DNA of 51,451 nt, from NCBI GenBank assembly GCA_964526325.1, contig CAZGKM010000009.1:1-51451 (forward strand), given 5' to 3'. Of this stretch, positions 7,404-37,911 are shown piece after piece; the stretch's first letter is position 1; each line of letters begins with the position of its first letter. The notes under the pieces were generated by a model, which worked only from the letters and a program-made list of their open reading frames with translations, did not search any database and had not been told where the DNA came from. The stretch is from an uncultured Gammaproteobacteria bacterium (GTDB lineage: Bacteria; Patescibacteriota; Patescibacteriia; Patescibacteriales; GWC2-42-12). The position numbers and the translations under genes are program-made.

Positions 7404-9161
7404 TTACATAATTTGCGACCCGACCAGCTCTTCTGCGCCGGCCATGCCGTAACCGGAAATAATTTCCCTCAACCGAATTTCAGTTTCAGATACCGCTCTC
7501 GGGTTGTAAAATAAAGCTGTGCCTATGCCAACGGCTTGGGCGCCGGCGATTAGATATTCAGCCGCGCTATCGCCGCTATCTATCCCGGTTTGTCCGATTA
7601 AAGGTATGCCTAAATTCATCTCATAAAGTATTCTTAATTTCCTTAGCGCTAACGCCATGGCTCCGGGGCCGGAATAACCTCCGTAAGTATTGCCTAAAGC
7701 CGCCCGCCTGGTTTTTATGTCAATCTTTAAGCCGGGATGAGTATTGAAGCAGGACAAAGCGTCGGCGCCGCCTTCAATGGCCATTTGAGCGATTTTTTTC
7801 AAATATTCGCCGTCCGGTATGGGAGAAAGTTTTACGATGATAAAAGCTTCGGGCGCCGCAAGTTTAACCGCTCTGACCACGCTATAAGTAGCGGCCGGAA
7901 ATAAACCGAAAATTTTCTCCTTCTTTTTTTTGTTAGGGCAAGAGATATTTACTTCAAAAACTCTTACGCCGCGCTCATATAATATTTCCGCCAAATCAGC
8001 ATACTCATCCACGCTATTACCAAAAATATTAACGATTAAGGTTTTCTTAAAGCTCAGCCAGCGGGAGAGCTTGTCTTTTAAAAATTCTCCCAAACCCACA
8101 TTCTCAAGGCCAATGGCATTAAGCATGCCTCCGGGTATCTCTGCTATCCTCGGGCCTGCGTTACCGGTACGCGGCAATAAAGATAAACCTTTAGTGGTAA
8201 TAGCTCCGGCCTTGCTTATGTCTAAAGACCCGGCTTCAATCTTCTCTAAGTCCAGACAGCCGGCGCAAGTAATAATCGGACCGGATAAAACCAATTTTTT
8301 GCCTTCTTGCCCGGCTAGTATGGTTTTCATTTTTATCTTTTCAGCCGGTTTACGCTCTTTTTTTGGCACAATAACGCCAATATTTGACTGCATTAATTTT
8401 TCCCAATCAATTAATATGCCGGGTAAAAACGGACCATCTTCGCAAAGATGATAATGCCTGCCGCCCTTTTTTGGTATGACGCAGCCCTTGCAAGCGCCTT
8501 CACCGCAAGCCATAAGCGTTTCCATGCCGAGCTGGCAATTTATTTGGTGCCTTAAAGCCATTACGGCAACTTTTTCCAGCATGGCGTTAGGTCCGCAAGC
8601 GATGATAATGGAATTGGTTTTATATTCGCCTGTTTTTAATTCTTCCGCCAGCAAATCGGTTACTAGCCCATTTTTTTCAATAATGGTTTTTCGACGACAG
8701 CCGTAAAGTTTTAGCCATTTTTTATCTTCTTCGTTGCATTGATCCTTACTGCCATAAAGGCAAATCATTTCAGTGGATGAATCTTTCAGCTTTGAAGCTA
8801 GGAGCATTATCCCGGCAATACCGGCGCCTCCGGCTACCAATATTACTTTCTGAAAATAATTAGAGATTTTAATCGGCTTGCCTAACGGTCCTTTAGCGGA
8901 AATTTTATCGCCCGGTTTCCGGCTTGAATAATACTCGGTATTTTCCCCCTTGACCAAAATTCTAATAACGAAAAAATTGGAGTATTGGATAAATACTGAA
9001 AACGGCCGCCACCAAATTTTACTGGCGCAAAATGATTCCAGCATGACGAATTGGCCGGGCTTTGCTTCAAGCGGTCTTTCCGTTCTTAACGTAAGATAAA
9101 AAACGCCGGCTACCCGATCACCTGTACAGCTTATTACTGTTGCCATAAAAATTTTCTTCAT
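7404..9161 (-). CDS. pyrD: Fused dihydroorotate dehydrogenase class 1B: PyrK-like electron-transfer domain (FAD/NAD, 2Fe-2S) N-terminal, PyrD catalytic domain C-terminal
   Basis: RPFSV, LVAGGAGIAG, MACGEGACKGCV...HLCEDGP (2Fe-2S), then GNAGPRIAEIPGGMLNAIGLENVG, EVNISCPN, GGYSGPG, QTGIDSG..AGAQAVGIGTA. SD aggaggggg. Confidence 0.88.
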   Translation of the reverse strand: MKKIFMATVISCTGDRVAGVFYLTLRTERPLEAKPGQFVMLESFCASKIWWRPFSVFIQYSNFFVIRILVKGENTEYYSSRKPGDKISAKGPLGKPIKISNYFQKVILVAGGAGIAGIMLLASKLKDSSTEMICLYGSKDQCNEEDKKWLKLYGCRRKTIIEKNGLVTDLLAEELKTGEYKTNSIIIACGPNAMLEKVAVMALRHQINCQLGMETLMACGEGACKGCVIPKKGGRHYHLCEDGPFLPGILIDWEKLMQSNIGVIVPKKERKPAEKIKMKTILAGQEGKKLVLSGPIITCAGCLDLEKIEAGSLDISKAGAITTKGLSLLPRTGNAGPRIAEIPGGMLNAIGLENVGLGEFLKDKLSRWLSFKKTLIVNIFGNSVDEYADLAEILYERGVRVFEVNISCPNKKKKEKIFGLFPAATYSVVRAVKLAAPEAFIIVKLSPIPDGEYLKKIAQMAIEGGADALSCFNTHPGLKIDIKTRRAALGNTYGGYSGPGAMALALRKLRILYEMNLGIPLIGQTGIDSGDSAAEYLIAGAQAVGIGTALFYNPRAVSETEIRLREIISGYGMAGAEELVGSQIM

Positions 9162-9256: not shown

Positions 9257-10120
9257 TTACTTCATCCGCCGTTTTTTGTAAATCTCCAGCGTATTTTTAA
9301 ACGCCATGGCGATAGTCATAGGCCCAACCCCGCCCGGTACGGGCGTAATATAGCCGGCCTTGTCTTTAACCTCATTAAAGTCAACATCGCCAACAGCTTT
9401 ATTATTTTGCTTAGTGATGCCGATATCAATAACTACCGCGCCTTCTTTTATCATGTCTTTCTTTATGAACCTGGGCCTGCCCACGGCCGTGATTAAAATA
9501 TCGGCCTGGCTGGTTTTAGCCCCTAAATTTTTATCATCGGCTTTAACCGCTTGCGCTTTAGCGCCCCGGCAGATTAAAACATGGGCTAAAGTTTTTCCGA
9601 AAATATCCGAGTTGGAAATTATTACTGCTTGCTTATATTTAATTTCATAATTTATGCTCTTAAGCATTTCTAAAACCGTGGCCAACACCGGCGACATTAA
9701 GCCGGAGAAATCGCAGCCGGAAAGCAGTTTTTCCAGATTGTCCGGATGAAAGCCGTCAACGTCTTTGGCCGAATCAAGCGCCATAATAATCGTATCCGCG
9801 TCAATTCCCTCGGGCATTGGCATCTGCACTAAAATCGCGTCGATTACTTTGTCTTCATTTAAGCATTTTATCATTTCTAAAATTTCCTGTTCGCTGGTAT
9901 TTTCCGCGCATCTGTATAGATGCGTATCTATTCCGACTTTTTTAGCTTCACTCTCTTTTAATCTTACGTACAATTCAGAATCCGGACGCTGACCGATTAA
10001 AACAATCGCCAGGTTCGGCCTAGTGATATTGTAGATATTTTTATTTAAGCTGATAATTTCTTTAACAATTTCATCCTTGATTTTTTCAGCTAGTTTTTTT
10101 CCATCGATGATTTTAAACAT
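9257..10120 (-). CDS. folD: Bifunctional methylene-THF dehydrogenase / methenyl-THF cyclohydrolase
   Basis: 287 aa; LVQMPMP, DVDGFHP, PVPGGVGPMTIAM. Confidence 0.93.
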   Translation of the reverse strand: MFKIIDGKKLAEKIKDEIVKEIISLNKNIYNITRPNLAIVLIGQRPDSELYVRLKESEAKKVGIDTHLYRCAENTSEQEILEMIKCLNEDKVIDAILVQMPMPEGIDADTIIMALDSAKDVDGFHPDNLEKLLSGCDFSGLMSPVLATVLEMLKSINYEIKYKQAVIISNSDIFGKTLAHVLICRGAKAQAVKADDKNLGAKTSQADILITAVGRPRFIKKDMIKEGAVVIDIGITKQNNKAVGDVDFNEVKDKAGYITPVPGGVGPMTIAMAFKNTLEIYKKRRMK

Positions 10121-10155: not shown

Positions 10156-10265
10156 TTGCTATTGCGGGCCTGCCGGCAGGTAATCCAGTAGCTTGTTCAG
10201 ATCGTTAAAGCTGGATTCCGGCATCCTGTATCAAGCGCGGGGCAGGCCACGATCGGAATAACAGG
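10156..10265. repeat. Palindromic ~110-nt MITE/REP-like element (family A2: TTGYTATTSCG termini, GGAATCCAG core)
   Basis: Left arm TTGCTATTGCGGGCCTGCCGGCAGGTAATCCAG. The reverse complement of the right arm reads CTGTTATTCCGATCGTGGCCTGCCCCGCG...GGAATCCAG. Lies between glyA stop and folD start. Confidence 0.65.
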
Positions 10266-10270
10266 AAAAA

Positions 10271-11518
10271 TTAAATTGAAGGTATGGGAAACTCCAAGCA
10301 CATCTCTTTAACTTCTTCTCTAATGCTATCCAGCATCTCGGCTTCATCTTTTTGTTCAATCGCCGAGTTAACCCAGCCGACAATTTTCTTTATTTCCGCC
10401 TCTTTCATGCCGCGCGTAGTTATGGCCGGAGTGCCGAAACGCACGCCCGACGGATTCATGGGCGGATTCGGGTCGTTCGGTATAGTTGAGCGCGAAACCG
10501 AAATGCCGCATTTTTCTAAAATAATTTCCGCTTCTTTGCCGCTAATATCTTTTGAAGTCATATCAACCACCATCAAATGATTATCCGTGCCGCCGGAAAT
10601 TACCCGATAGCCTGATTTTATGAATTCCTCGGACATGAGCTTGGCGTTAGCGATTACCTGTTTGGCATATTGCTTAAACTCCGGGCGCAGCGCTTCGCCG
10701 AAAGCCACGGCTTTAGCCGCGGTAATATGATCATGCGGCCCGCCTTGCATGCCCGGGAAAACCGCGCGGTCAACAAATTTTGCAAATTGCTCTTTGCACA
10801 TTATCATGGCGCCGCGCGGACCGCGCAAAGTTTTATGAGTAGTCGTTGAAACTACGTCGAAAAACGGCACCGGATTATCCATTTCGCCGGCCGCGATTAA
10901 ACCGGCCGTATGGGCGATATCGGCGAAAGTAAACGCGCCGACTTCATCGGCAATATCCTTGAATTTCCGCCACTCAATTTCTCGCGAATAAGCGCTGTAG
11001 CCGGCCACGATCATTTTCGGTTTTTCGCGCAAGGCGATCTCGCGAACTTTTTCCATATTTATTTTTCCGGTCTCGGTATCCACTTCGTATTGCGTAAAAT
11101 TATATAGTATGCCGGAAAAATTCACCGGATGGCCGTGAGATAAATGGCCGCCATGGTCTAAGCGCAAGCCTAAAACTTTATCGCCCGGCTTTATGAAAGC
11201 GAAATAAACCGCCGCGTTGGCCGGCGAACCGGATAAAGGCTGGACGTTAACATGCTCGGCTTGAAATAATTTTTTCGCCCGCTCGATGGCCAAATTTTCC
11301 ACTTCATCGATTATCTGATTCCCGCCGTAATAGCGATGGCCGGGAAAACCTTCCGAGTATTTATTTGTCAGTACCGTCGCCATGGCTTCCAATACGGCCT
11401 TGGAAACATAATTTTCCGAAGCGATTAATTCCATTTCCTCAACTTGCCTATGCATTTCCCGTCTGACTACGGCCATGATTTCCTTATCCTCTTCGCTTAG
11501 ATTTTTATAATTTAGCAT
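10271..11518 (-). CDS. glyA: Serine hydroxymethyltransferase
   Basis: 415 aa; TTTHKTLRGPRG (PLP lysine), GGHLSHG. Confidence 0.95.
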   Translation of the reverse strand: MLNYKNLSEEDKEIMAVVRREMHRQVEEMELIASENYVSKAVLEAMATVLTNKYSEGFPGHRYYGGNQIIDEVENLAIERAKKLFQAEHVNVQPLSGSPANAAVYFAFIKPGDKVLGLRLDHGGHLSHGHPVNFSGILYNFTQYEVDTETGKINMEKVREIALREKPKMIVAGYSAYSREIEWRKFKDIADEVGAFTFADIAHTAGLIAAGEMDNPVPFFDVVSTTTHKTLRGPRGAMIMCKEQFAKFVDRAVFPGMQGGPHDHITAAKAVAFGEALRPEFKQYAKQVIANAKLMSEEFIKSGYRVISGGTDNHLMVVDMTSKDISGKEAEIILEKCGISVSRSTIPNDPNPPMNPSGVRFGTPAITTRGMKEAEIKKIVGWVNSAIEQKDEAEMLDSIREEVKEMCLEFPIPSI

Positions 11519-35147: not shown

Positions 35148-35882
35148 TCATATTAATAAAAGCGCTAAATAAACGAGCGTGCCGCCGCCGACACCGAATA
35201 AAAAAGTTTTAATCTGATGATATTTAAAACTTTCCGGAAGGAGTTCATGGACGGCGATAAAAAGCATGGCGCCGGCCGCCAAAGACAAAAAAATAGAATT
35301 AAGATTTTTAAAAATAGCCAATAAATTAATGGCTAAAACCGAGCCCAGAAAAGTAGCCAGCATAGAAAGCGTAGCGGCTTTATGGCAAAAACTGCGTCCG
35401 CCTGATTTTGGCTCAGACATAGTTAGAATATAACCTTCAGGAACGTTGTGAATAAAAGTAGCGAGCACTACTAAAAGGCCGAGCGACTCCGAACCGCTAA
35501 ACGAGCTAGTAATAGCAAACCCTTCCGGGAAATCGTGCAAAATCAAGCCGATAGCGATAAGATAGGACATTCGCGCCAAATATTTATCTTGGCATTTTTT
35601 TATTTCTTTTACCGAATGTAAATGCGGAATAATCCAATCAGCCAGCCAGATGACAAAAATTCCCGATAAAACCCAAAAAAATAACTTTCCCGCGCTGATA
35701 TTTTTGGCTGCAGCCGGGATTAACTCAAATATTGATATTAAAATCATTAAGCTGGCGGCGAAACTCGCGCTAAAAATAATGTTCTTTTCCGTTTTCTTGA
35801 ATAAACTGCCGAAAAAAACTCCGACTAAAGTTGCAAAACCGGCCAAACCGGCTAAAAATAATATGTTTGTATTAGACATCAT
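35148..35882 (-). CDS. zupT: ZIP-family divalent metal transporter
   Basis: HDFPEGFA and HNVPEG motifs, ~8 TM segments. Confidence 0.85.
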   Translation of the reverse strand: MMSNTNILFLAGLAGFATLVGVFFGSLFKKTEKNIIFSASFAASLMILISIFELIPAAAKNISAGKLFFWVLSGIFVIWLADWIIPHLHSVKEIKKCQDKYLARMSYLIAIGLILHDFPEGFAITSSFSGSESLGLLVVLATFIHNVPEGYILTMSEPKSGGRSFCHKAATLSMLATFLGSVLAINLLAIFKNLNSIFLSLAAGAMLFIAVHELLPESFKYHQIKTFLFGVGGGTLVYLALLLI

Positions 35883-35967
35883 AAAGCTTTATGTTCTATT
35901 TATGTATTAATTTTACTACAAAAAAATTTAAAATCCTATAGCGGCCAGAAACGTGATTATAAGGCTA

Positions 35968-36004
35968 AATAAAAACCCCATATCTGATAAATCCGATATG
36001 GGGG
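35968..36004 (-). terminator. Intrinsic terminator after the 78-aa ORF
   Basis: Minus strand CCCCATATCggatttatcaGATATGGGG followed by TTTTTATTT. Confidence 0.75.
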
Positions 36005-36021
36005 CGCTAAAATTTAAAAAA

Positions 36022-36258
36022 CTAATACCATTCAAAAACCCGGCTTTTCTTTTTGAGCATTTTTCCAATATGCTCTTTCTGCGCAATGTCTATTATTTGA
36101 AACATATAAATTAAATTGTACTTTCGGCCTTTAATTATTACCGGCCTTATGCCGTCTTCAATTTCCATTTCCATAATAATATCGGCAGAAATATTATTTT
36201 CGCGAAAAATCTTTTTTAAATTTTCGGCCTTCAAATTTTTAACGGCTAAAACCGCCAT
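36022..36258 (-). CDS. Hypothetical protein, 78 aa
   Basis: Strong SD aaggaggt 8 nt upstream of ATG, own terminator, no recognisable motif. Confidence 0.6.
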   Translation of the reverse strand: MAVLAVKNLKAENLKKIFRENNISADIIMEMEIEDGIRPVIIKGRKYNLIYMFQIIDIAQKEHIGKMLKKKSRVFEWY

Positions 36259-36430
36259 GACTTTTTACCTCCTTATTTTTAAGGTTCAAAATTATATATA
36301 AAACGCTGTATTATTTAATATTAAAAAATAGCACGCAAAGTGCTATCAGTCAATGGTAGACTATTGTATTGAGAATTGGAACACTCTTTATTATGAATTA
36401 AGGTGTTAGGACGTGGAAAAAATATTAAAA

Positions 36431-36471
36431 AGAAAAACGGTTAAAACAAAATTGTCTTAACCGTATTTTTA
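36431..36471 (-). terminator. Intrinsic terminator after the HIT gene
   Basis: ACGGTTAA/TTAACCGT stem with flanking T-runs. Confidence 0.7.
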
Positions 36472-36493
36472 TTCTGCGAAAGAGTTTCTTTTT

Positions 36494-36994
36494 TTATTTG
36501 CTCTTTCCCTTAATCCAAGCTCTTGCCATTTCATCAACTTTTTCTGTCGTATATCCATCAGGATCTGAATATATAACACTAAATTCTTCAAACATCTCTT
36601 TTAACTTTTGCATATCTGCGACGGGGATAAAAGGTCTTTTATCTGAAGGTAAGTATCCAGCATCATCATTTAATATCGGATGAAAGTGTTGATGAGAATG
36701 AGGCAAAGTTCGTCTTTTGTCATTAGCCGACAAATTGAAGACTGCGAAATCGACAAAACCTTCAACTTCAAACATTTTCTTAATTGCTTTTAAAATATCA
36801 TTGAGCTTAACAACTTGCTTTTTTTGAAGCATATGAATTTCAGTGATATGCTCCTTAGGAACTATTAGCAGATGGCCAAATTTCACTGGCTTTATGTTTG
36901 CCAAAATATAGAATTTATCATCCTCCCACAACAAGGGCAAATCCCGTCCCTTAACAGGATCCTTTCTCGTACAAAGAAAGCAATTACTCTTCAT
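36494..36994 (-). CDS. HIT (histidine triad) family protein
   Basis: KPVKFGHLLIVPKEH and HSHQHFHP triad; SD ggaggga. Confidence 0.75.
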   Translation of the reverse strand: MKSNCFLCTRKDPVKGRDLPLLWEDDKFYILANIKPVKFGHLLIVPKEHITEIHMLQKKQVVKLNDILKAIKKMFEVEGFVDFAVFNLSANDKRRTLPHSHQHFHPILNDDAGYLPSDKRPFIPVADMQKLKEMFEEFSVIYSDPDGYTTEKVDEMARAWIKGKSK

Positions 36995-37052
36995 TTTCTC
37001 CCTCCTTCAATTTGATGTAAATGTACTTGTATTTGTTTTTACCCAATGTAAT

Positions 37053-37081
37053 ACATTACCAGAATCAAGGGTAATTGTCAA
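37053..37081 (-). promoter_or_regulatory. Promoter TTGACA-17-TAATGT for the HIT gene
   Basis: Minus strand: TTGACA 37081-37076 and TAATGT 37058-37053. Confidence 0.55.
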
Positions 37082-37090
37082 CTCTGAAAC

Positions 37091-37119
37091 AAAAAATCAC
37101 CTAAAATTAGGTGATTTTT
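37091..37119. terminator. Intrinsic terminator after the tRNA locus
   Basis: aaaaaATCACCTAaaatTAGGTGATtttt. Confidence 0.75.
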
Positions 37120-37125
37120 ATCTTG

Positions 37126-37344
37126 TAGCCCCTAGGAGAATCGAACTCCTATTACCAGGCCTGCCCCGCATCAAAATAATAATTTTCAGTACCGCTACGG
37201 GGAATCGAACCCCGGTTACCAGGATGAAAACCTGGTGTCCTAACCACTAGACGATAGCGGCATAATAATTCTAAACTACTGCAATAATAATTTTGGTGCG
37301 GGGATGAATAAAACCTGGTGTCCTAACCACTAGACGAAGGGGCC
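37126..37344 (-). tRNA. Interrupted tRNA-Glu-like gene: 5' half 37344-37314 and 3' half 37159-37126, separated by 154 nt that contain the tRNA-Glu above
   Basis: 5' half GGCCCCT-TC-GTCT-AGTGGTTA-GGAC-A-CCAGG. 3' half CCTGG-TAAT-AGGAG-TTCGATT-CTCCT-AGGGGCT-A. The acceptor stem (7 bp) and anticodon stem (5 bp) are fully complementary across the gap. Confidence 0.6.
37190..37261 (-). tRNA. tRNA-Glu (anticodon UUC), 72 nt, no encoded CCA
   Basis: GCCGCTA-TC-GTCT-AGTGGTTA-GGAC-A-CCAGG-TTTTCAT-CCTGG-TAAC-CGGGG-TTCGATT-CCCCG-TAGCGGT-A. Full cloverleaf with G1-U72 and A73. Confidence 0.9.
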
Positions 37345-37377
37345 AAAAATTATTAATTGTAAAATTTAACTTCTTTT

Positions 37378-37821
37378 TTACTCTCCAATTATCACTAAAG
37401 AAATTTGTCTCCCTCGAGACCGGTCAAGCTCAACGGCAAAAACTCTTTGCCATTGCCCAAGACCTAAACCGTTATTAACAATATTTAGCATAACCGAAGT
37501 CGGCAAATGTATTGCCTTGGCATGGGCATGGCCGTTATCGCACTCGCCATCGCACATATTAACTGTCCTGACTTCAAAATTGTCATGAGCGTATTCGGAA
37601 GTCCGGGGCGCCAGCTTTTCCAAAGACTTTTTTAAATCGGAGATTAAAAGCGGCTCAGCTTCATTAACCAATACGGCCATAGTCGTATGCAGGCTTTGGA
37701 TATTAATAATACCTTCAGTAATGCCCGCCTCCTTAATTTTCTCTTGAATTTTCTCGGTGACATCAATAAAATCTAAAGTTGTGGCAGTTTTTAAATCAAT
37801 GGCATATTTAATTACTTTCAT
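37378..37821 (-). CDS. yjbQ: YjbQ/UPF0047 family protein (secondary thiamine-phosphate synthase-like)
   Basis: 147 aa; SLHTTMAVLVNE, NGHAHAKA. Confidence 0.8.
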   Translation of the reverse strand: MKVIKYAIDLKTATTLDFIDVTEKIQEKIKEAGITEGIINIQSLHTTMAVLVNEAEPLLISDLKKSLEKLAPRTSEYAHDNFEVRTVNMCDGECDNGHAHAKAIHLPTSVMLNIVNNGLGLGQWQRVFAVELDRSRGRQISLVIIGE

Positions 37822-37882
37822 GTTTTAGCAATCGCTCAATACGCTAATTTAAAAATAAAAAGCCCCGTAACGGACTAAAAAA

Positions 37883-37911
37883 ATTATAATCTAAAATGAT
37901 AATTAAGTCAA
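37883..37911 (-). promoter_or_regulatory. Promoter TTGACT-17-TATAAT for yjbQ
   Basis: Minus strand: TTGACT 37911-37906 and TATAAT 37888-37883. Confidence 0.6.

What the first reader, a model, noticed from the sequence alone, without database searches (positions are those of the whole stretch)
37126..37344. A complete tRNA-Glu nested in the anticodon loop of a second, interrupted tRNA-Glu-like gene
Two tRNA pieces appear on the minus strand. Positions 37344->37314 read GGCCCCU-UC-GUCU-AGUGGUUA-GGAC-A-CCAGG: acceptor 5' strand, D arm and anticodon-stem 5' strand. Positions 37159->37126 read CCUGG-UAAU-AGGAG-UUCGAUU-CUCCU-AGGGGCU-A: anticodon-stem 3' strand, variable loop, T arm, acceptor 3' strand and discriminator. 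The two pieces complement each other as one cloverleaf, with 7/7 acceptor pairs (including G1-U72) and 5/5 anticodon-stem pairs, yet 154 nt separate them. Those 154 nt contain an independently folding 72-nt tRNA-Glu(UUC) at 37261->37190. Its positions 8-35 (UCGUCUAGUGGUUAGGACACCAGGUUUU, 28 nt) are identical to the outer 5' half, and it shares the unusual G1-U72/A73 end. The insert is closed by a 7-bp helix CCCCGCA/UGCGGGG (37303-37297 with 37170-37164). That helix continues through near-complementary AAAAUUAUUAUU tracts, so the inner tRNA sits at the tip of a ~20-bp hairpin resembling terminal inverted repeats. The outer anticodon-loop remnants (UUUUAUUCAU on the 5' side, CAGG on the 3' side) cannot be joined into a canonical 7-nt Glu loop by simple excision. 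I could not draw a bulge-helix-bulge motif. I see three possible explanations. (a) A hairpin MITE carrying its own replacement tRNA inserted into a resident tRNA-Glu gene. (b) This is a new kind of bacterial tRNA intron that hosts another tRNA. (c) RNase P/Z release of the inner tRNA leaves two halves that re-associate as a split tRNA, as in Nanoarchaeota. I know of no described bacterial example of any of these.
Basis: seen in the sequence. Interest (0 to 1): 0.85.

Follow-up and report, generated by a model that had tools for sequence, protein, structure and literature searches.

The report
Replacement tRNA inserted into broken tRNA
In an ultra-small (CPR/Patescibacteria) bacterium, the resident glutamate-tRNA gene has been split by about 147 bases of inserted DNA that carries its own complete, foreign-type glutamate-tRNA gene; this looks like a nuclease-less relic of a recurrent selfish DNA that invades this tRNA gene and supplies a spare copy.

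Summary
On the minus strand, two halves of one tRNA-Glu (37344-37310 and 37159-37126) enclose a complete tRNA-Glu(UUC) at 37261-37190. Independent assemblies support both junctions.

It is a DNA insertion, not an intron. Three syntenic relatives (YjbQ 84-87% identical) carry an uninterrupted tRNA-Glu at the same spot after yjbQ. It matches the outer halves at 35/35 and 33/34 bases.

The filled site has two lesions: +ATT between nt 35 and 36, and a 142-nt insert flanked by a duplicated CC (nt 39-40). No single excision restores a 7-nt anticodon loop. ARAGORN in intron mode and Rfam find nothing beyond the inner tRNA.

The inner tRNA is the ordinary stand-alone tRNA-Glu of other CPR lineages, so it is probably foreign here.

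The pattern recurs. About 18% of 114 sampled CPR tRNA-Glu loci carry relic fragments. Many have the layout [nt 1-35][conserved two-hairpin insert][CATCCT][GIY-YIG nuclease ORF][intact tRNA-Glu]. The breakpoints are the same as in the window, or within 1-2 nt of them.

My best reading: the window holds a nuclease-less member of a cassette family that invades tRNA-Glu genes and brings a spare tRNA. The inner tRNA works and the outer halves are a relic. The insertion mechanism is inferred, not shown.

The parts
37310..37344 (-). Outer (resident) tRNA-Glu, nt 1-35: GGCCCCTTCGTCTAGTGGTTAGGACACCAGGTTTT
   Evidence: It is 35/35 identical to the uninterrupted orthologous tRNA-Glu after yjbQ in L165, L166 and L168.
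37307..37309 (-). 3-nt insertion ATT between nt 35 and 36 of the outer anticodon
   Evidence: Comparison of the filled site with the empty site CCAGGTTTTCATCCTGG. The related cassettes carry their two-hairpin insert at this same position.
37302..37306 (-). Outer tRNA nt 36-40 (CATCC); the last CC is also the start of the 7-bp helix
37160..37301 (-). Inserted DNA proper (142 nt), flanked by a duplicated CC (nt 39-40 of the outer tRNA)
   Evidence: Absent from the orthologous site in L165, L166 and L168. Coordinates.
37283..37303 (-). Left arm of the inverted repeat: CCCCGCACCAAAATTATTATT
   Evidence: the repeat finder I3: 21 nt, 86% complementary. CCCCGCAC also starts the insert in the broken tRNA-Glu of L090.
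37164..37184 (-). Right arm of the inverted repeat: AATTATTATTTTGATGCGGGG
   Evidence: ATGCGGGGCAGGC is identical to the 3' end of the L090 insert. The reverse complement GGCCTGCCCCGCATCAA matches a second L090 copy at 16/17.
37190..37261 (-). Inner, intact tRNA-Glu(UUC), acceptor GCCGCUA/UAGCGGU, discriminator A; no encoded CCA
   Evidence: ARAGORN; Rfam 66.8 bits. It is 72/72 identical to stand-alone tRNA-Glu genes in 8 metagenome loci.
37283..37294 (-). Direct repeat AAAATTATTATT, copy 1 (upstream of the inner tRNA)
37175..37186 (-). Direct repeat AAAATTATTATT, copy 2 (downstream of the inner tRNA)
37160..37163 (-). CAGG at the right junction; it forms the palindrome CAGG|CCTG with outer nt 39-42
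37126..37159 (-). Outer (resident) tRNA-Glu, nt 39-73: CCTGGTAATAGGAGTTCGATTCTCCTAGGGGCTA
   Evidence: 33/34 identical to the orthologue (TAAC -> TAAT).
37092..37119 (-). Terminator hairpin plus T run that closes the transcription unit
   Evidence: 13-bp perfect inverted repeat I7, followed by TTTTTTG. Relatives have a terminator in the same place.
37378..37821 (-). yjbQ (UPF0047), the gene just upstream; the likely co-transcript that defines the orthologous locus
   Evidence: Pfam PF01894, E = 6e-29. Synteny in L165, L166, L168 and L185.
37883..37911 (-). Promoter-like site TTGACT-17-TATAAT upstream of yjbQ; the probable start of the transcript that carries the nested tRNAs
   Evidence: 11/12 match. 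Sequence.

Best explanation
This is a DNA-level insertion scar.

The tRNA-Glu(UUC) gene that normally follows yjbQ in this Falkowbacteria-like CPR lineage was broken at two points: in its anticodon (35/36) and at the loop/stem border (about nt 40). A 142-nt cassette was inserted there. The cassette consists of a complete tRNA-Glu gene of a foreign type, with short AT-rich flanks, bracketed by the arms of a GC-rich palindromic element.

How it works now (inferred). The whole nest is transcribed from the resident signals: the promoter upstream of yjbQ and the terminator at 37119-37092. RNase P and 3' processing plus CCA addition release the inner tRNA, which is the working tRNA-Glu. The outer halves are left as leader and trailer and are a dead gene.

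How it arose (inferred from related loci). The window holds a nuclease-less member or derivative of a cassette family that is widespread in CPR bacteria. The typical member is [tRNA-Glu nt 1-35][conserved two-hairpin insert][nt 36-41][small GIY-YIG endonuclease ORF][intact tRNA-Glu]. These cassettes target the nearly invariant nt 8-47 core of tRNA-Glu genes. They survive in genomes that depend on this gene because they bring a spare copy. I propose that a GIY-YIG-type staggered break, followed by copying or joining of the cassette, accounts for the 2-nt CC duplication and the palindromic CAGG|CCTG junction.
For: SHOWN

1. Empty sites. L165, L166 and L168 (YjbQ 87, 86 and 84% identical, with conserved PGI..yjbQ..DsbA-SufS-ATPase synteny) show the uninterrupted sequence about 35 nt after the yjbQ stop. 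L166 and L168 carry the complete gene GGCCCCTTCGTCTAGTGGTTAGGACACCAGGTTTTCATCCTGGTAACAGGAGTTCGATTCTCCTAGGGGCTA. The L165 contig ends at nt ~51 of it.
2. The outer halves match that gene at 35/35 and 33/34.
3. The inner tRNA is 72/72 identical to stand-alone tRNA-Glu genes with their own promoters in 8 loci of other lineages. It differs from the resident type in 6 of 7 acceptor pairs and in the T stem.
4. It is not an intron: ARAGORN in intron mode; Rfam; two separate lesions.
5. The pattern recurs. Of 114 intact CPR tRNA-Glu copies, 12/105 have a 5' relic and 13/104 a 3' relic within 800 nt. GIY-YIG ORFs (PF01541) lie within 260 nt in 11 of 120 loci.
6. Blind test. Three GIY-YIG homologue clusters, chosen without regard to tRNAs, all sit in the same layout next to tRNA-Glu.
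7. The family breakpoints (35/36 and 41/42) coincide with the window's (35/36 and 40/41).
8. The window's hairpin termini recur. ATGCGGGGCAGGC and CCCCGCAC bound an insert in the broken tRNA-Glu of L090, and GATGCGGGCAGG ends the 9/10 insert of L133.
9. The same orthologous site is hit differently in another relative, L185: a 5' relic with a GC-rich insert at 9/10, followed by an intact tRNA.
10. In the MFE fold the inner cloverleaf forms with an unpaired 5' leader.

BACKGROUND. Endonuclease 'mobile ORF' elements that bring a foreign replacement gene part and leave the native part as a relic are documented in fungal mitochondria (PMC3630166). A GIY-YIG homing endonuclease acts in the T4 tRNA gene cluster and makes 2-nt 3' overhangs (PMC2330249).
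Against: - There is no endonuclease, transposase or integrase gene in or next to the window's insert. No GIY-YIG ORF turns up anywhere in the 51 kb. The link to the GIY-YIG cassettes therefore rests on shared breakpoints and shared hairpin termini.
- The window lacks the two-hairpin insert; it has only ATT at that position.
- I found no donor locus with the same flanks.
- An architecture-specific metagenome scan found no second copy of exactly this nest.
- The outer halves are almost undecayed (1 substitution). That could mean a recent event, but also retention for some function.
- An intact inner tRNA should itself be a target of a nuclease that recognises tRNA-Glu, so how the cassette avoids cutting itself is unexplained.
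- The roughly 80-aa GIY-YIG proteins have no obvious DNA-binding domain.
- There are no RNA data, so 'inner works, outer dead' is an inference.
Confidence: 0.7

Rival explanations
1. Local rearrangement with no dedicated mobile element. A second tRNA-Glu gene, acquired or duplicated, was joined into the resident gene by illegitimate or microhomology-mediated repair of an accidental break. The hairpin arms are an unrelated GC-rich palindrome that happened to be there.
For: There is no mobility gene in the window. The two tRNAs share 28 + 12 identical bases that could guide repair. 12-nt direct repeats AAAATTATTATT flank the inner tRNA segment. No second identical nest was found in metagenomes.
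Against: The breakpoints coincide with, or lie within 1-2 nt of, those of a recurrent GIY-YIG cassette family. The hairpin termini are shared with other broken tRNA-Glu genes: a 13-mer in about 0.84 Mb, with about 0.03 matches expected by chance. About 18% of CPR tRNA-Glu loci carry relics. The same orthologous locus is hit independently in L185.
Confidence: 0.15
2. The outer halves have a function at the RNA level. After, or instead of, release of the inner tRNA they stay paired through the acceptor stem, the anticodon stem and the about 20-bp hairpin. In that form they serve as a processing scaffold or clamp for the inner tRNA, or as a two-piece tRNA-like RNA.
For: The nested fold is very stable (z = -4.8). 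The outer halves are nearly intact: 35/35 and 33/34. In related cassettes the 5' piece plus two-hairpin insert is conserved, with strong covariation: 99% paired, 7 of 12 pairs with double changes, 0 of 500 shuffles.
Against: Relatives manage with a plain tRNA gene. The outer molecule has no anticodon loop, so it cannot decode. Relics in other loci are truncated at varied points and often lack the 3' half. Near-intactness is equally expected after a recent insertion.
Confidence: 0.07
3. A new bacterial tRNA intron that hosts a tRNA. The outer tRNA is spliced and both tRNAs are functional.
For: The position is in or next to the anticodon loop, and a closing helix brings the ends together.
Against: There are two separate lesions, so no single excision restores UUUUCAU. 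The best single excision gives an 8-nt loop, UUUUCAGG. ARAGORN in intron mode gives no call. Rfam gives no group I/II or other match even at E <= 10. At 147-154 nt the insert is shorter than known group I introns (my own knowledge). I could not draw a bulge-helix-bulge motif. Orthologues lack the insert. Related GC-rich inserts occur in both orientations (L133), which points to a DNA-level rather than an RNA-level origin.
Confidence: 0.03
4. Assembly or chimera artefact caused by the shared 28-mer.
For: Logan contigs L002, L003 and L164 break exactly at the end of the shared repeat.
Against: Both junctions are unique sequences that a repeat-mediated mis-join cannot create. Each is covered by independent contigs from several runs (L001; L004-L006), identical to the window.
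Confidence: 0.02

Closest known systems
Mobile endonuclease ORF elements (mORFs) of fungal mitochondria that carry a foreign replacement gene end (Allomyces macrogynus atp6; Glomus atp6/atp9/cox2/nad3)
   Same: A selfish insert lands inside an essential gene, brings a foreign copy of the part it destroys, and leaves the native part downstream as an unexpressed relic. The native relic matches close relatives and the inserted copy does not (PMC3630166). One of these elements encodes a GIY-YIG enzyme. The Allomyces genomes also hold small mobile double-hairpin elements (Paquin et al. 2000, cited in PMC3787672; the content is from my own knowledge).
   Different: Here the host is a free-living-type bacterial chromosome (CPR). 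The target is a tRNA gene. A whole gene is supplied, so it sits nested inside both relic halves. The window's copy has no endonuclease ORF.
Free-standing GIY-YIG homing endonuclease SegB in the phage T4 tRNA gene cluster
   Same: A GIY-YIG endonuclease gene sits among tRNA genes. It cuts the tRNA gene region of a related genome, giving mostly 2-nt 3' overhangs, and drives co-inheritance of its flanking tRNA genes (PMC2330249).
   Different: SegB does not split a tRNA gene or leave nested relics. The CPR proteins are only about 80-90 aa (catalytic domain only), and their activity is untested.
Integrative elements (phages, ICEs, genomic islands) that integrate into tRNA genes and rebuild the gene
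   Same: A tRNA gene is the target. The element carries tRNA sequence that keeps a functional gene, and a duplicated tRNA fragment marks the far end. (Established knowledge, e.g. Williams 2002, from memory.)
   Different: Those use a tyrosine or serine integrase, duplicate only the 3' part as a direct repeat, and are kilobases long. Here there is no integrase. A complete tRNA of a different sequence lies between a 5' and a 3' relic, and the insert is 142 nt.
Archaeal BHB tRNA introns, split and permuted tRNA genes (Nanoarchaeum, Caldivirga, Cyanidioschyzon)
   Same: tRNA genes are interrupted at loops and junctions, and halves are held together by added helices.
   Different: Those are processed by a splicing endonuclease at bulge-helix-bulge motifs into a canonical tRNA. 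Here there is no BHB, no canonical product is possible, and the organism is bacterial.
Bacterial group I introns in tRNA anticodon loops (cyanobacterial tRNA-Leu/fMet, Azoarcus tRNA-Ile)
   Same: An interruption in the anticodon region of a bacterial tRNA gene.
   Different: There is no group I core (Rfam), the insert is too short, and the exons cannot be rejoined into a 7-nt loop.
MITEs and GC-rich palindromic insertion elements (yeast mitochondrial GC clusters, Rickettsia palindromic elements, Correia elements)
   Same: A short insert bounded by inverted repeats, GC-rich arms in an AT-rich genome, an empty site in relatives, and related termini at other sites and in both orientations.
   Different: The element carries a functional gene as cargo. 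Copy number in this genome is unknown: only one further 12-nt terminus match in 51 kb. No cognate transposase is known.

Membership tests
Group I intron in a bacterial tRNA gene | Conserved catalytic core (P3-P8, G-binding site) detectable by the Rfam group I model | tested here: not met
   Rfam gives no match at gathering threshold or at E <= 10 on 36950-37450.
Group I intron in a bacterial tRNA gene | Excision of one contiguous segment restores a canonical 7-nt anticodon loop | tested here: not met
   There are two separate lesions: +ATT at 35/36 and a 142-nt insert with a CC duplication. ARAGORN -i does not call the outer tRNA.
Archaeal-type BHB intron / split tRNA | Bulge-helix-bulge motif at both exon-intron borders | tested here: not met
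   The MFE and centroid folds show a 7-nt/1-nt asymmetric internal loop followed by a continuous helix, not 3-nt bulges separated by 4 bp.
Archaeal-type BHB intron / split tRNA | Splicing endonuclease (EndA) and ligase encoded by the organism | not testable with these tools
   Only 51 kb of the genome is available.
MITE / palindromic insertion element | Terminal inverted repeats | tested here: met
   21-nt arms, 86% complementary (I3).
MITE / palindromic insertion element | Empty site in related genomes | tested here: met
   The site is uninterrupted at the orthologous position in L165, L166 and L168; L166 and L168 carry the complete tRNA-Glu and the L165 contig ends within it.
MITE / palindromic insertion element | Target-site duplication | tested here: inconclusive
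   Only a 2-nt CC duplication (nt 39-40), which could arise by chance.
MITE / palindromic insertion element | Multiple copies in the genome and a related autonomous element | tested here: inconclusive
   No further copy of the arms in 51 kb at up to 3 mismatches. There is one 12-nt terminus match in an 82-nt GC-rich element at 10167-10248. Related termini occur in L090 and L133.
Endonuclease 'mobile ORF' cassette with replacement gene copy | Insert inside a host gene, bringing a foreign functional copy and leaving the native sequence as a relic | tested here: met
   The native halves match the relatives (35/35, 33/34). The inner tRNA is of another lineage's type.
Endonuclease 'mobile ORF' cassette with replacement gene copy | Endonuclease ORF within the insert | tested here: not met
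   None in the window. It is present in related loci: 11 of 120 metagenome loci and 3 of 3 blind GIY-YIG contexts.
Endonuclease 'mobile ORF' cassette with replacement gene copy | The endonuclease cuts the uninterrupted target gene | not testable with these tools
   Needs biochemistry.
Integrase-mediated integration into a tRNA gene | Tyrosine or serine integrase gene, and direct repeats of the tRNA 3' part at both element ends | tested here: not met
   There is no such ORF between or next to the halves. The arrangement is nested (5' relic, full foreign tRNA, 3' relic), not attL/attR.

The most novel reading that the evidence does not exclude
CPR/Patescibacteria harbour a previously undescribed family of selfish cassettes that home into the almost invariant nt 8-47 core of the tRNA-Glu gene. 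An autonomous member would encode a minimal, roughly 80-aa GIY-YIG nuclease preceded by a tRNA 5' half and a structurally conserved double hairpin, and would carry a complete spare tRNA-Glu. That spare lets it invade genomes that depend on this gene, and lets it replace the host's tRNA-Glu across lineages. The window would hold a minimal, non-autonomous member: only the spare tRNA between palindromic arms. Under this reading, tRNA-Glu genes in these bacteria turn over horizontally, driven by a parasite of the gene itself.
Probability: 0.35. Interest if true: 0.8.

Novelty: new variant of a known kind. Interest (0 to 1): 0.6.

Why it matters
The window's feature on its own is a relic: one working tRNA inside a dead one. 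It still matters for three reasons.

1. It is a clean, comparatively dated case of a bacterial tRNA gene destroyed and functionally replaced in one step by inserted DNA, with the empty site preserved in relatives.
2. It led to a recurrent architecture in CPR bacteria: broken tRNA-Glu, conserved double hairpin, tiny GIY-YIG nuclease, intact tRNA-Glu. I could not find this described in the searchable literature. It would explain why tRNA-Glu acceptor and T stems differ sharply between otherwise close CPR genomes.
3. It warns annotators that tRNA finders report only the inner gene, and that short-read assemblies break at these loci.

If the nuclease link holds, the cassettes offer a testable system for how a homing element can target a tRNA gene its host depends on without killing the host.

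Tried and rejected
1. A protein-synteny scan of genome contigs with YjbQ. The 13 relatives at 36-78% identity do not keep a tRNA-Glu after yjbQ; only L012 has a tRNA-Gln there. It identified the phylum but gave no orthologous tRNA. Closer relatives had to be reached through the search for homologous proteins and the look-up of encoding contigs.
2. A metagenome scan for the exact architecture (T loop, 31-60 nt, outer 3' half) gave 0 hits.
3. Viral-contig scans. The outer T-arm/acceptor pattern found only ordinary tRNA-Glu genes, which was useful as a control. The two-hairpin junction pattern gave 0 hits. The 14-mer ATGCGGGGCAGGCC gave over 120 hits that are chance matches in GC-rich phage DNA, so I discarded them.
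4. A brute-force list of GC-rich inverted repeats in the window was too noisy to use.
5. A control for relic frequency with non-Glu tRNAs is confounded, because neighbouring tRNAs in clusters share T- and D-loop words.
6. ARAGORN in intron mode, including relaxed thresholds, produced only spurious low-score calls apart from the inner tRNA.
7. A search for a donor locus with the same flanks as the inner tRNA found none among the 8 loci with an identical tRNA.
8. Literature searches for tRNA introns or GIY-YIG-tRNA cassettes in CPR/Patescibacteria found nothing relevant.
Full report
**1.

On the minus strand the window reads as follows:

| Coordinates (minus strand) | Sequence / feature |
|---|---|
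| 37344-37310 | GGCCCCTTCGTCTAGTGGTTAGGACACCAGGTTTT |
| 37309-37307 | ATT |
| 37306-37302 | CATCC |
| following | CCGCACC-AAAATTATTATT-GCAGTAGTTTAGAATTATTAT |
| 37261-37190 | 72-nt inner tRNA |
| 37189 onward, ending 37160 | CTG-AAAATTATTATT-TTGA-TGCGGGG-CAGG |
| 37159-37126 | CCTGGTAATAGGAGTTCGATTCTCCTAGGGGCTA |
| 37119-37092 | terminator hairpin |

- ARAGORN and Rfam both call only the inner tRNA-Glu(UUC), at 66.8 bits.
- Inner nt 8-35 equal the outer 5' piece, 28/28.
- The closing helix extends to 21 nt at 86% complementarity.
- The MFE fold of the precursor is the nested double cloverleaf, z = -4.8.

The one correction is that the outer gene carries two lesions, not one. The first is +ATT between nt 35 and 36. 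The second is the large insert after nt 40, with the CC of nt 39-40 present on both sides.

**2. It is not an assembly artefact**

Both junctions are unique sequence. Independent Logan contigs from four runs cover yjbQ through the left junction into the inner tRNA (L001). Others run from the inner tRNA through the right junction into the HIT gene (L004-L006). All are identical to the window. Other contigs stop exactly at the shared 28-mer, as expected for short-read graphs.

**3. Organism and locus**

The flanking genes are:
- yjbQ/UPF0047 (37378-37821), upstream on the same strand
- a HIT-family gene (36494-36994), downstream
- DUF2238, ZIP, DsbA-like, SufS-like and a P-type ATPase nearby

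YjbQ relatives place the window in CPR/Patescibacteria. The closest named genome is a Candidatus Falkowbacteria MAG. A promoter-like site (TTGACT-17-TATAAT) lies upstream of yjbQ. The tRNAs are therefore probably co-transcribed with yjbQ and terminated at 37119-37092 (inference).

**4. The decisive comparison**

Three relatives with YjbQ at 87, 86 and 84% identity keep the synteny PGI..yjbQ..DsbA-SufS-ATPase. These are L165, L166 and L168. About 35 nt after the yjbQ stop, L166 and L168 have an uninterrupted tRNA-Glu(UUC) followed by a terminator:

GGCCCCTTCGTCTAGTGGTTAGGACACCAGGTTTTCATCCTGGTAACAGGAGTTCGATTCTCCTAGGGGCTA

The L165 contig ends within this gene, at ...CATCCTGGTAACAGG, but already runs uninterrupted through the insertion point.

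The spacer upstream of the tRNA is alignable with the window. The window's outer halves are this gene: 35/35 and 33/34 identical. The empty site is CCAGGTTTTCATCCTGG. The filled site is CCAGGTTTT+ATT+CATCC+[142 nt]+CCTGG. So the outer tRNA is the resident gene and the 142 nt are an insertion.

**5. The inner tRNA is of a foreign type**

A metagenome scan with the shared 26-mer returned 120 loci. The exact inner sequence stands alone, with its own TTGACT..TATAAT promoter, in 8 of them. The resident type stands alone in 2.

The two types share nt 8-47, as do dozens of other CPR tRNA-Glu variants. They differ in 6 of 7 acceptor pairs and in the T stem. The resident type is identical among the three syntenic relatives over the sequence available. 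The inner gene was therefore most likely acquired from another lineage (inference). The G1-U72/A73 end is ordinary for this tRNA-Glu class.

**6. It is not an intron or a split tRNA**

- No single excision restores UUUUCAU; the best gives an 8-nt loop.
- ARAGORN with introns allowed does not call the outer gene.
- Rfam finds no intron or other family, even at E <= 10.
- The fold shows no bulge-helix-bulge motif.
- Joined halves would carry a long helix instead of an anticodon loop and could not decode (inference).

**7. The arrangement is one case of a recurrent pattern**

*Frequency.* I examined 114 intact tRNA-Glu copies in the metagenome loci. Of these, 12/105 have a fragment of their own 5' part within 800 nt upstream. 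13/104 have a fragment of their own 3' part downstream (two of these hits are doubtful).

*Nuclease genes.* Eleven of 120 loci have a small ORF within 260 nt that is a GIY-YIG catalytic domain (PF01541).

*Typical layout*:
[tRNA-Glu nt 1-35][about 30-nt two-hairpin insert][CATCCT = nt 36-41][a few nt][ATG..GIY-YIG, 78-90 aa][intact tRNA-Glu]

Sometimes the nuclease ORF lies after the intact tRNA instead (L055, L090, L140). Sometimes a 3' relic lies further downstream (L065, L109, L133, L140). L133 is a complete nest like the window, and L140 is nested twice.

*Blind test.* I took homologues of one such GIY-YIG protein and looked up three clusters without regard to tRNAs. All showed the same layout next to tRNA-Glu, in Parcubacteria, Falkowbacteria and Moranbacteria MAGs.

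*The two-hairpin insert is a conserved structure.* Across nine loci, 99.1% of cells are paired. 7 of 12 pairs show changes on both sides, and 0 of 500 shuffles reach the observed covariation.

*Other inserts.* Further GC-rich hairpin inserts sit at nt 9/10, 12/13, in the D loop, at 25/26 and in the T loop of the broken copies. They occur in both orientations (L133), which argues for DNA-level events.

**8. Links between the window and this family**

- The window's lesions at 35/36 and 40/41 coincide with the family's lesions at 35/36 and 41/42.
- The window's arms are shared. L090 has an insert GGAC|CCCGCAC...TATGCGGGGCAGGC in its broken tRNA-Glu. It also has a second copy, GGCCTGCCCCGCACCAA, which is 16/17 identical to the reverse complement of the window's right arm. 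The 9/10 insert of L133 ends in GATGCGGGCAGG.
- L090's intact tRNA differs from the window's inner tRNA by a single base pair.
- At the same orthologous site after yjbQ, another relative (L185, YjbQ 88%) has a 5' relic with a 45-nt GC-rich insert at 9/10, followed by an intact tRNA-Glu of yet another type. This locus has therefore been hit more than once.
- Relic loci without a nuclease ORF also exist elsewhere (L048, L082, L088, L074 and others).

**9. Mechanism: what is shown and what is inferred**

*Shown:*
- insertion into the resident gene
- the inner tRNA is of a type not found at this locus in the relatives
- recurrence of the pattern, and its association with GIY-YIG genes
- shared breakpoints and shared termini

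*Inferred:*
- The inner tRNA is released from the yjbQ read-through transcript by RNase P and 3' processing, with CCA added afterwards. This is standard bacterial tRNA maturation. The leader is unpaired in the fold.
- The outer halves are dead.
- The event was a nuclease-made staggered break followed by copying or joining of a cassette that carries a spare tRNA. GIY-YIG homing enzymes leave 2-nt 3' overhangs (SegB, PMC2330249). That would fit the CC duplication, and the CAGG|CCTG palindrome looks like an end-processing footprint.
- A synthesis-dependent repair model could account for several features. In it, the left end of the break pairs with the cassette's 5' piece. Only products that copy the whole donor tRNA remain viable when donor and recipient acceptor stems differ. 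This would explain why nests with different acceptors (window, L055, L061, L169) keep a complete inner tRNA. This model is speculation.

*Unexplained:*
- how the intact inner tRNA escapes the nuclease
- what the conserved double hairpin does
- why the window has ATT in its place

**10. Rivals**

| Rival | Confidence | Main point |
|---|---|---|
| Accidental local rearrangement without a dedicated element | 0.15 | Cannot be excluded for the window alone, but does not explain the shared breakpoints and termini |
| RNA-level role for the outer halves | 0.07 | Possible but unsupported |
| Intron | 0.03 | Effectively excluded |
| Assembly artefact | 0.02 | Effectively excluded |

**11. Comparison with known systems**

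The closest analogue in logic is the mitochondrial mobile endonuclease ORF. It inserts into a gene together with a foreign replacement for the part it displaces, and leaves the native part as a silent relic (PMC3630166). T4 SegB shows that a GIY-YIG enzyme can drive inheritance of tRNA genes. Integrase-borne islands also rebuild their tRNA target, but in a different way. The window fails the defining tests for group I introns, BHB introns and integrase att sites. It meets some of the MITE criteria, but not all.

I found no description of nested tRNA genes, or of GIY-YIG/tRNA-Glu cassettes, in CPR bacteria in the searchable literature. That library is incomplete.

**12. Verdict**

The feature is a real, explained insertion scar with a working tRNA inside a dead one. 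It is a new variant of a known strategy in which selfish DNA carries a spare copy of its target. It also points to a wider cassette family that deserves a systematic survey.

Noticed in passing
L055, L061 (two copies), L065/L073, L090, L140, L169, L175, L179 (alignment A3): A two-hairpin insert of about 30 nt sits exactly between nt 35 and 36 of a truncated tRNA-Glu 5' piece. It is always followed by CATCCT and then, usually, by the start codon of a GIY-YIG ORF. The stems covary strongly: 99% paired, 7 of 12 pairs with double changes, 0 of 500 shuffles. Its function is unknown (DNA hairpins for a nuclease, or an mRNA leader).
   Followed up: partly
L061, L065, L175 (GIY-YIG ORF ends): The GIY-YIG reading frames run into the 5' end of the intact tRNA-Glu; the stop codon lies inside or 1-6 nt before the tRNA. 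RNase P cleavage would therefore remove or abut the stop codon, which may couple nuclease expression to tRNA processing.
   Followed up: no
L140, minus strand, about 620 nt either side of the tRNA at 8096-8167: A doubly nested locus: 5' relic, GIY-YIG no. 1, second 5' relic with three GC-rich inserts plus the two-hairpin insert, intact tRNA-Glu, GIY-YIG no. 2, then a 3' relic with a partial two-hairpin and a large T-loop insert. Short flanks of the tRNA (ATACCAT.. and ..CCAATCAA) are duplicated with the relics.
   Followed up: partly
L065, L097, L109, L179 (two copies), and also L074, L079, L112, L132, L145, L161, downstream of the intact tRNA-Glu: GC-rich segments of 100-170 nt follow the tRNA terminator. 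They end in a 3' relic that starts in the T loop (..GATTCCCC + acceptor 3' strand). Several begin with an inverted copy of the T loop (GGGGAATCGAA..). Rfam gave no match in the loci scanned (L065, L097, L109, L179); the other six were not scanned.
   Followed up: partly
window 10167-10248 (spacer between glyA 10271-11518 and folD 9257-10120, minus strand): An 82-nt GC-rich element bounded by GGCCTGCC/GGCAGGCC. One end, GGCCTGCCCCGC, is identical over 12 nt to the right terminus of the tRNA insert; about 0.006 such matches are expected by chance in 51 kb. It may be a second copy of the same palindromic element family. Its fold is not unusually stable (z = -1.3).
   Followed up: partly
window 35148-37090 compared with L166 and L168: The window has three extra genes (HIT family, a 78-aa ORF, a ZIP transporter) between the tRNA-Glu locus and the DsbA-like gene. 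In the relatives the tRNA terminator is followed directly by the DsbA-like gene. This is a second indel next to the tRNA.
   Followed up: no
L185 (GCA_005795785.1), 1637-1870: At the same orthologous site after yjbQ there is a 5' relic GGCCCCATC | 45-nt GC-rich insert at nt 9/10 | GTCTAATGATTAG. About 50 nt further on is an intact tRNA-Glu whose anticodon and T stems differ from the type in L166 and L168. tRNA-Glu at this locus appears to turn over between close relatives.
   Followed up: partly
L181 and L183 compared with L179 (Moranbacteria MAGs, same GIY-YIG protein): The 'intact' tRNA-Glu is truncated after ..AACAGGGG and joined to the terminator region, and ARAGORN finds no tRNA. These are either real deletion alleles or assembly collapse at the repeated GGGG..CCCC segments.
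   Followed up: no
window 37850-37911; L046, L084, L099, L110, L119 upstream of tRNA-Glu: The same promoter-plus-leader motif (TTGACT..17..TATAAT TTTTTTAGTCC..hairpin..TTTATTTT) precedes yjbQ in the window. In other CPR lineages it directly precedes the stand-alone tRNA-Glu genes.
   Followed up: no
L012 6457-6530: In a more distant relative (YjbQ 68%), the gene directly after yjbQ is a tRNA-Gln(UUG), not tRNA-Glu.
   Followed up: no
L050, L066, L138 (tRNA-Lys, tRNA-Leu): Possible 3' relics of tRNAs other than Glu turned up in the control scan. The phenomenon may not be limited to tRNA-Glu, but the control is confounded by tRNA clusters.
   Followed up: no
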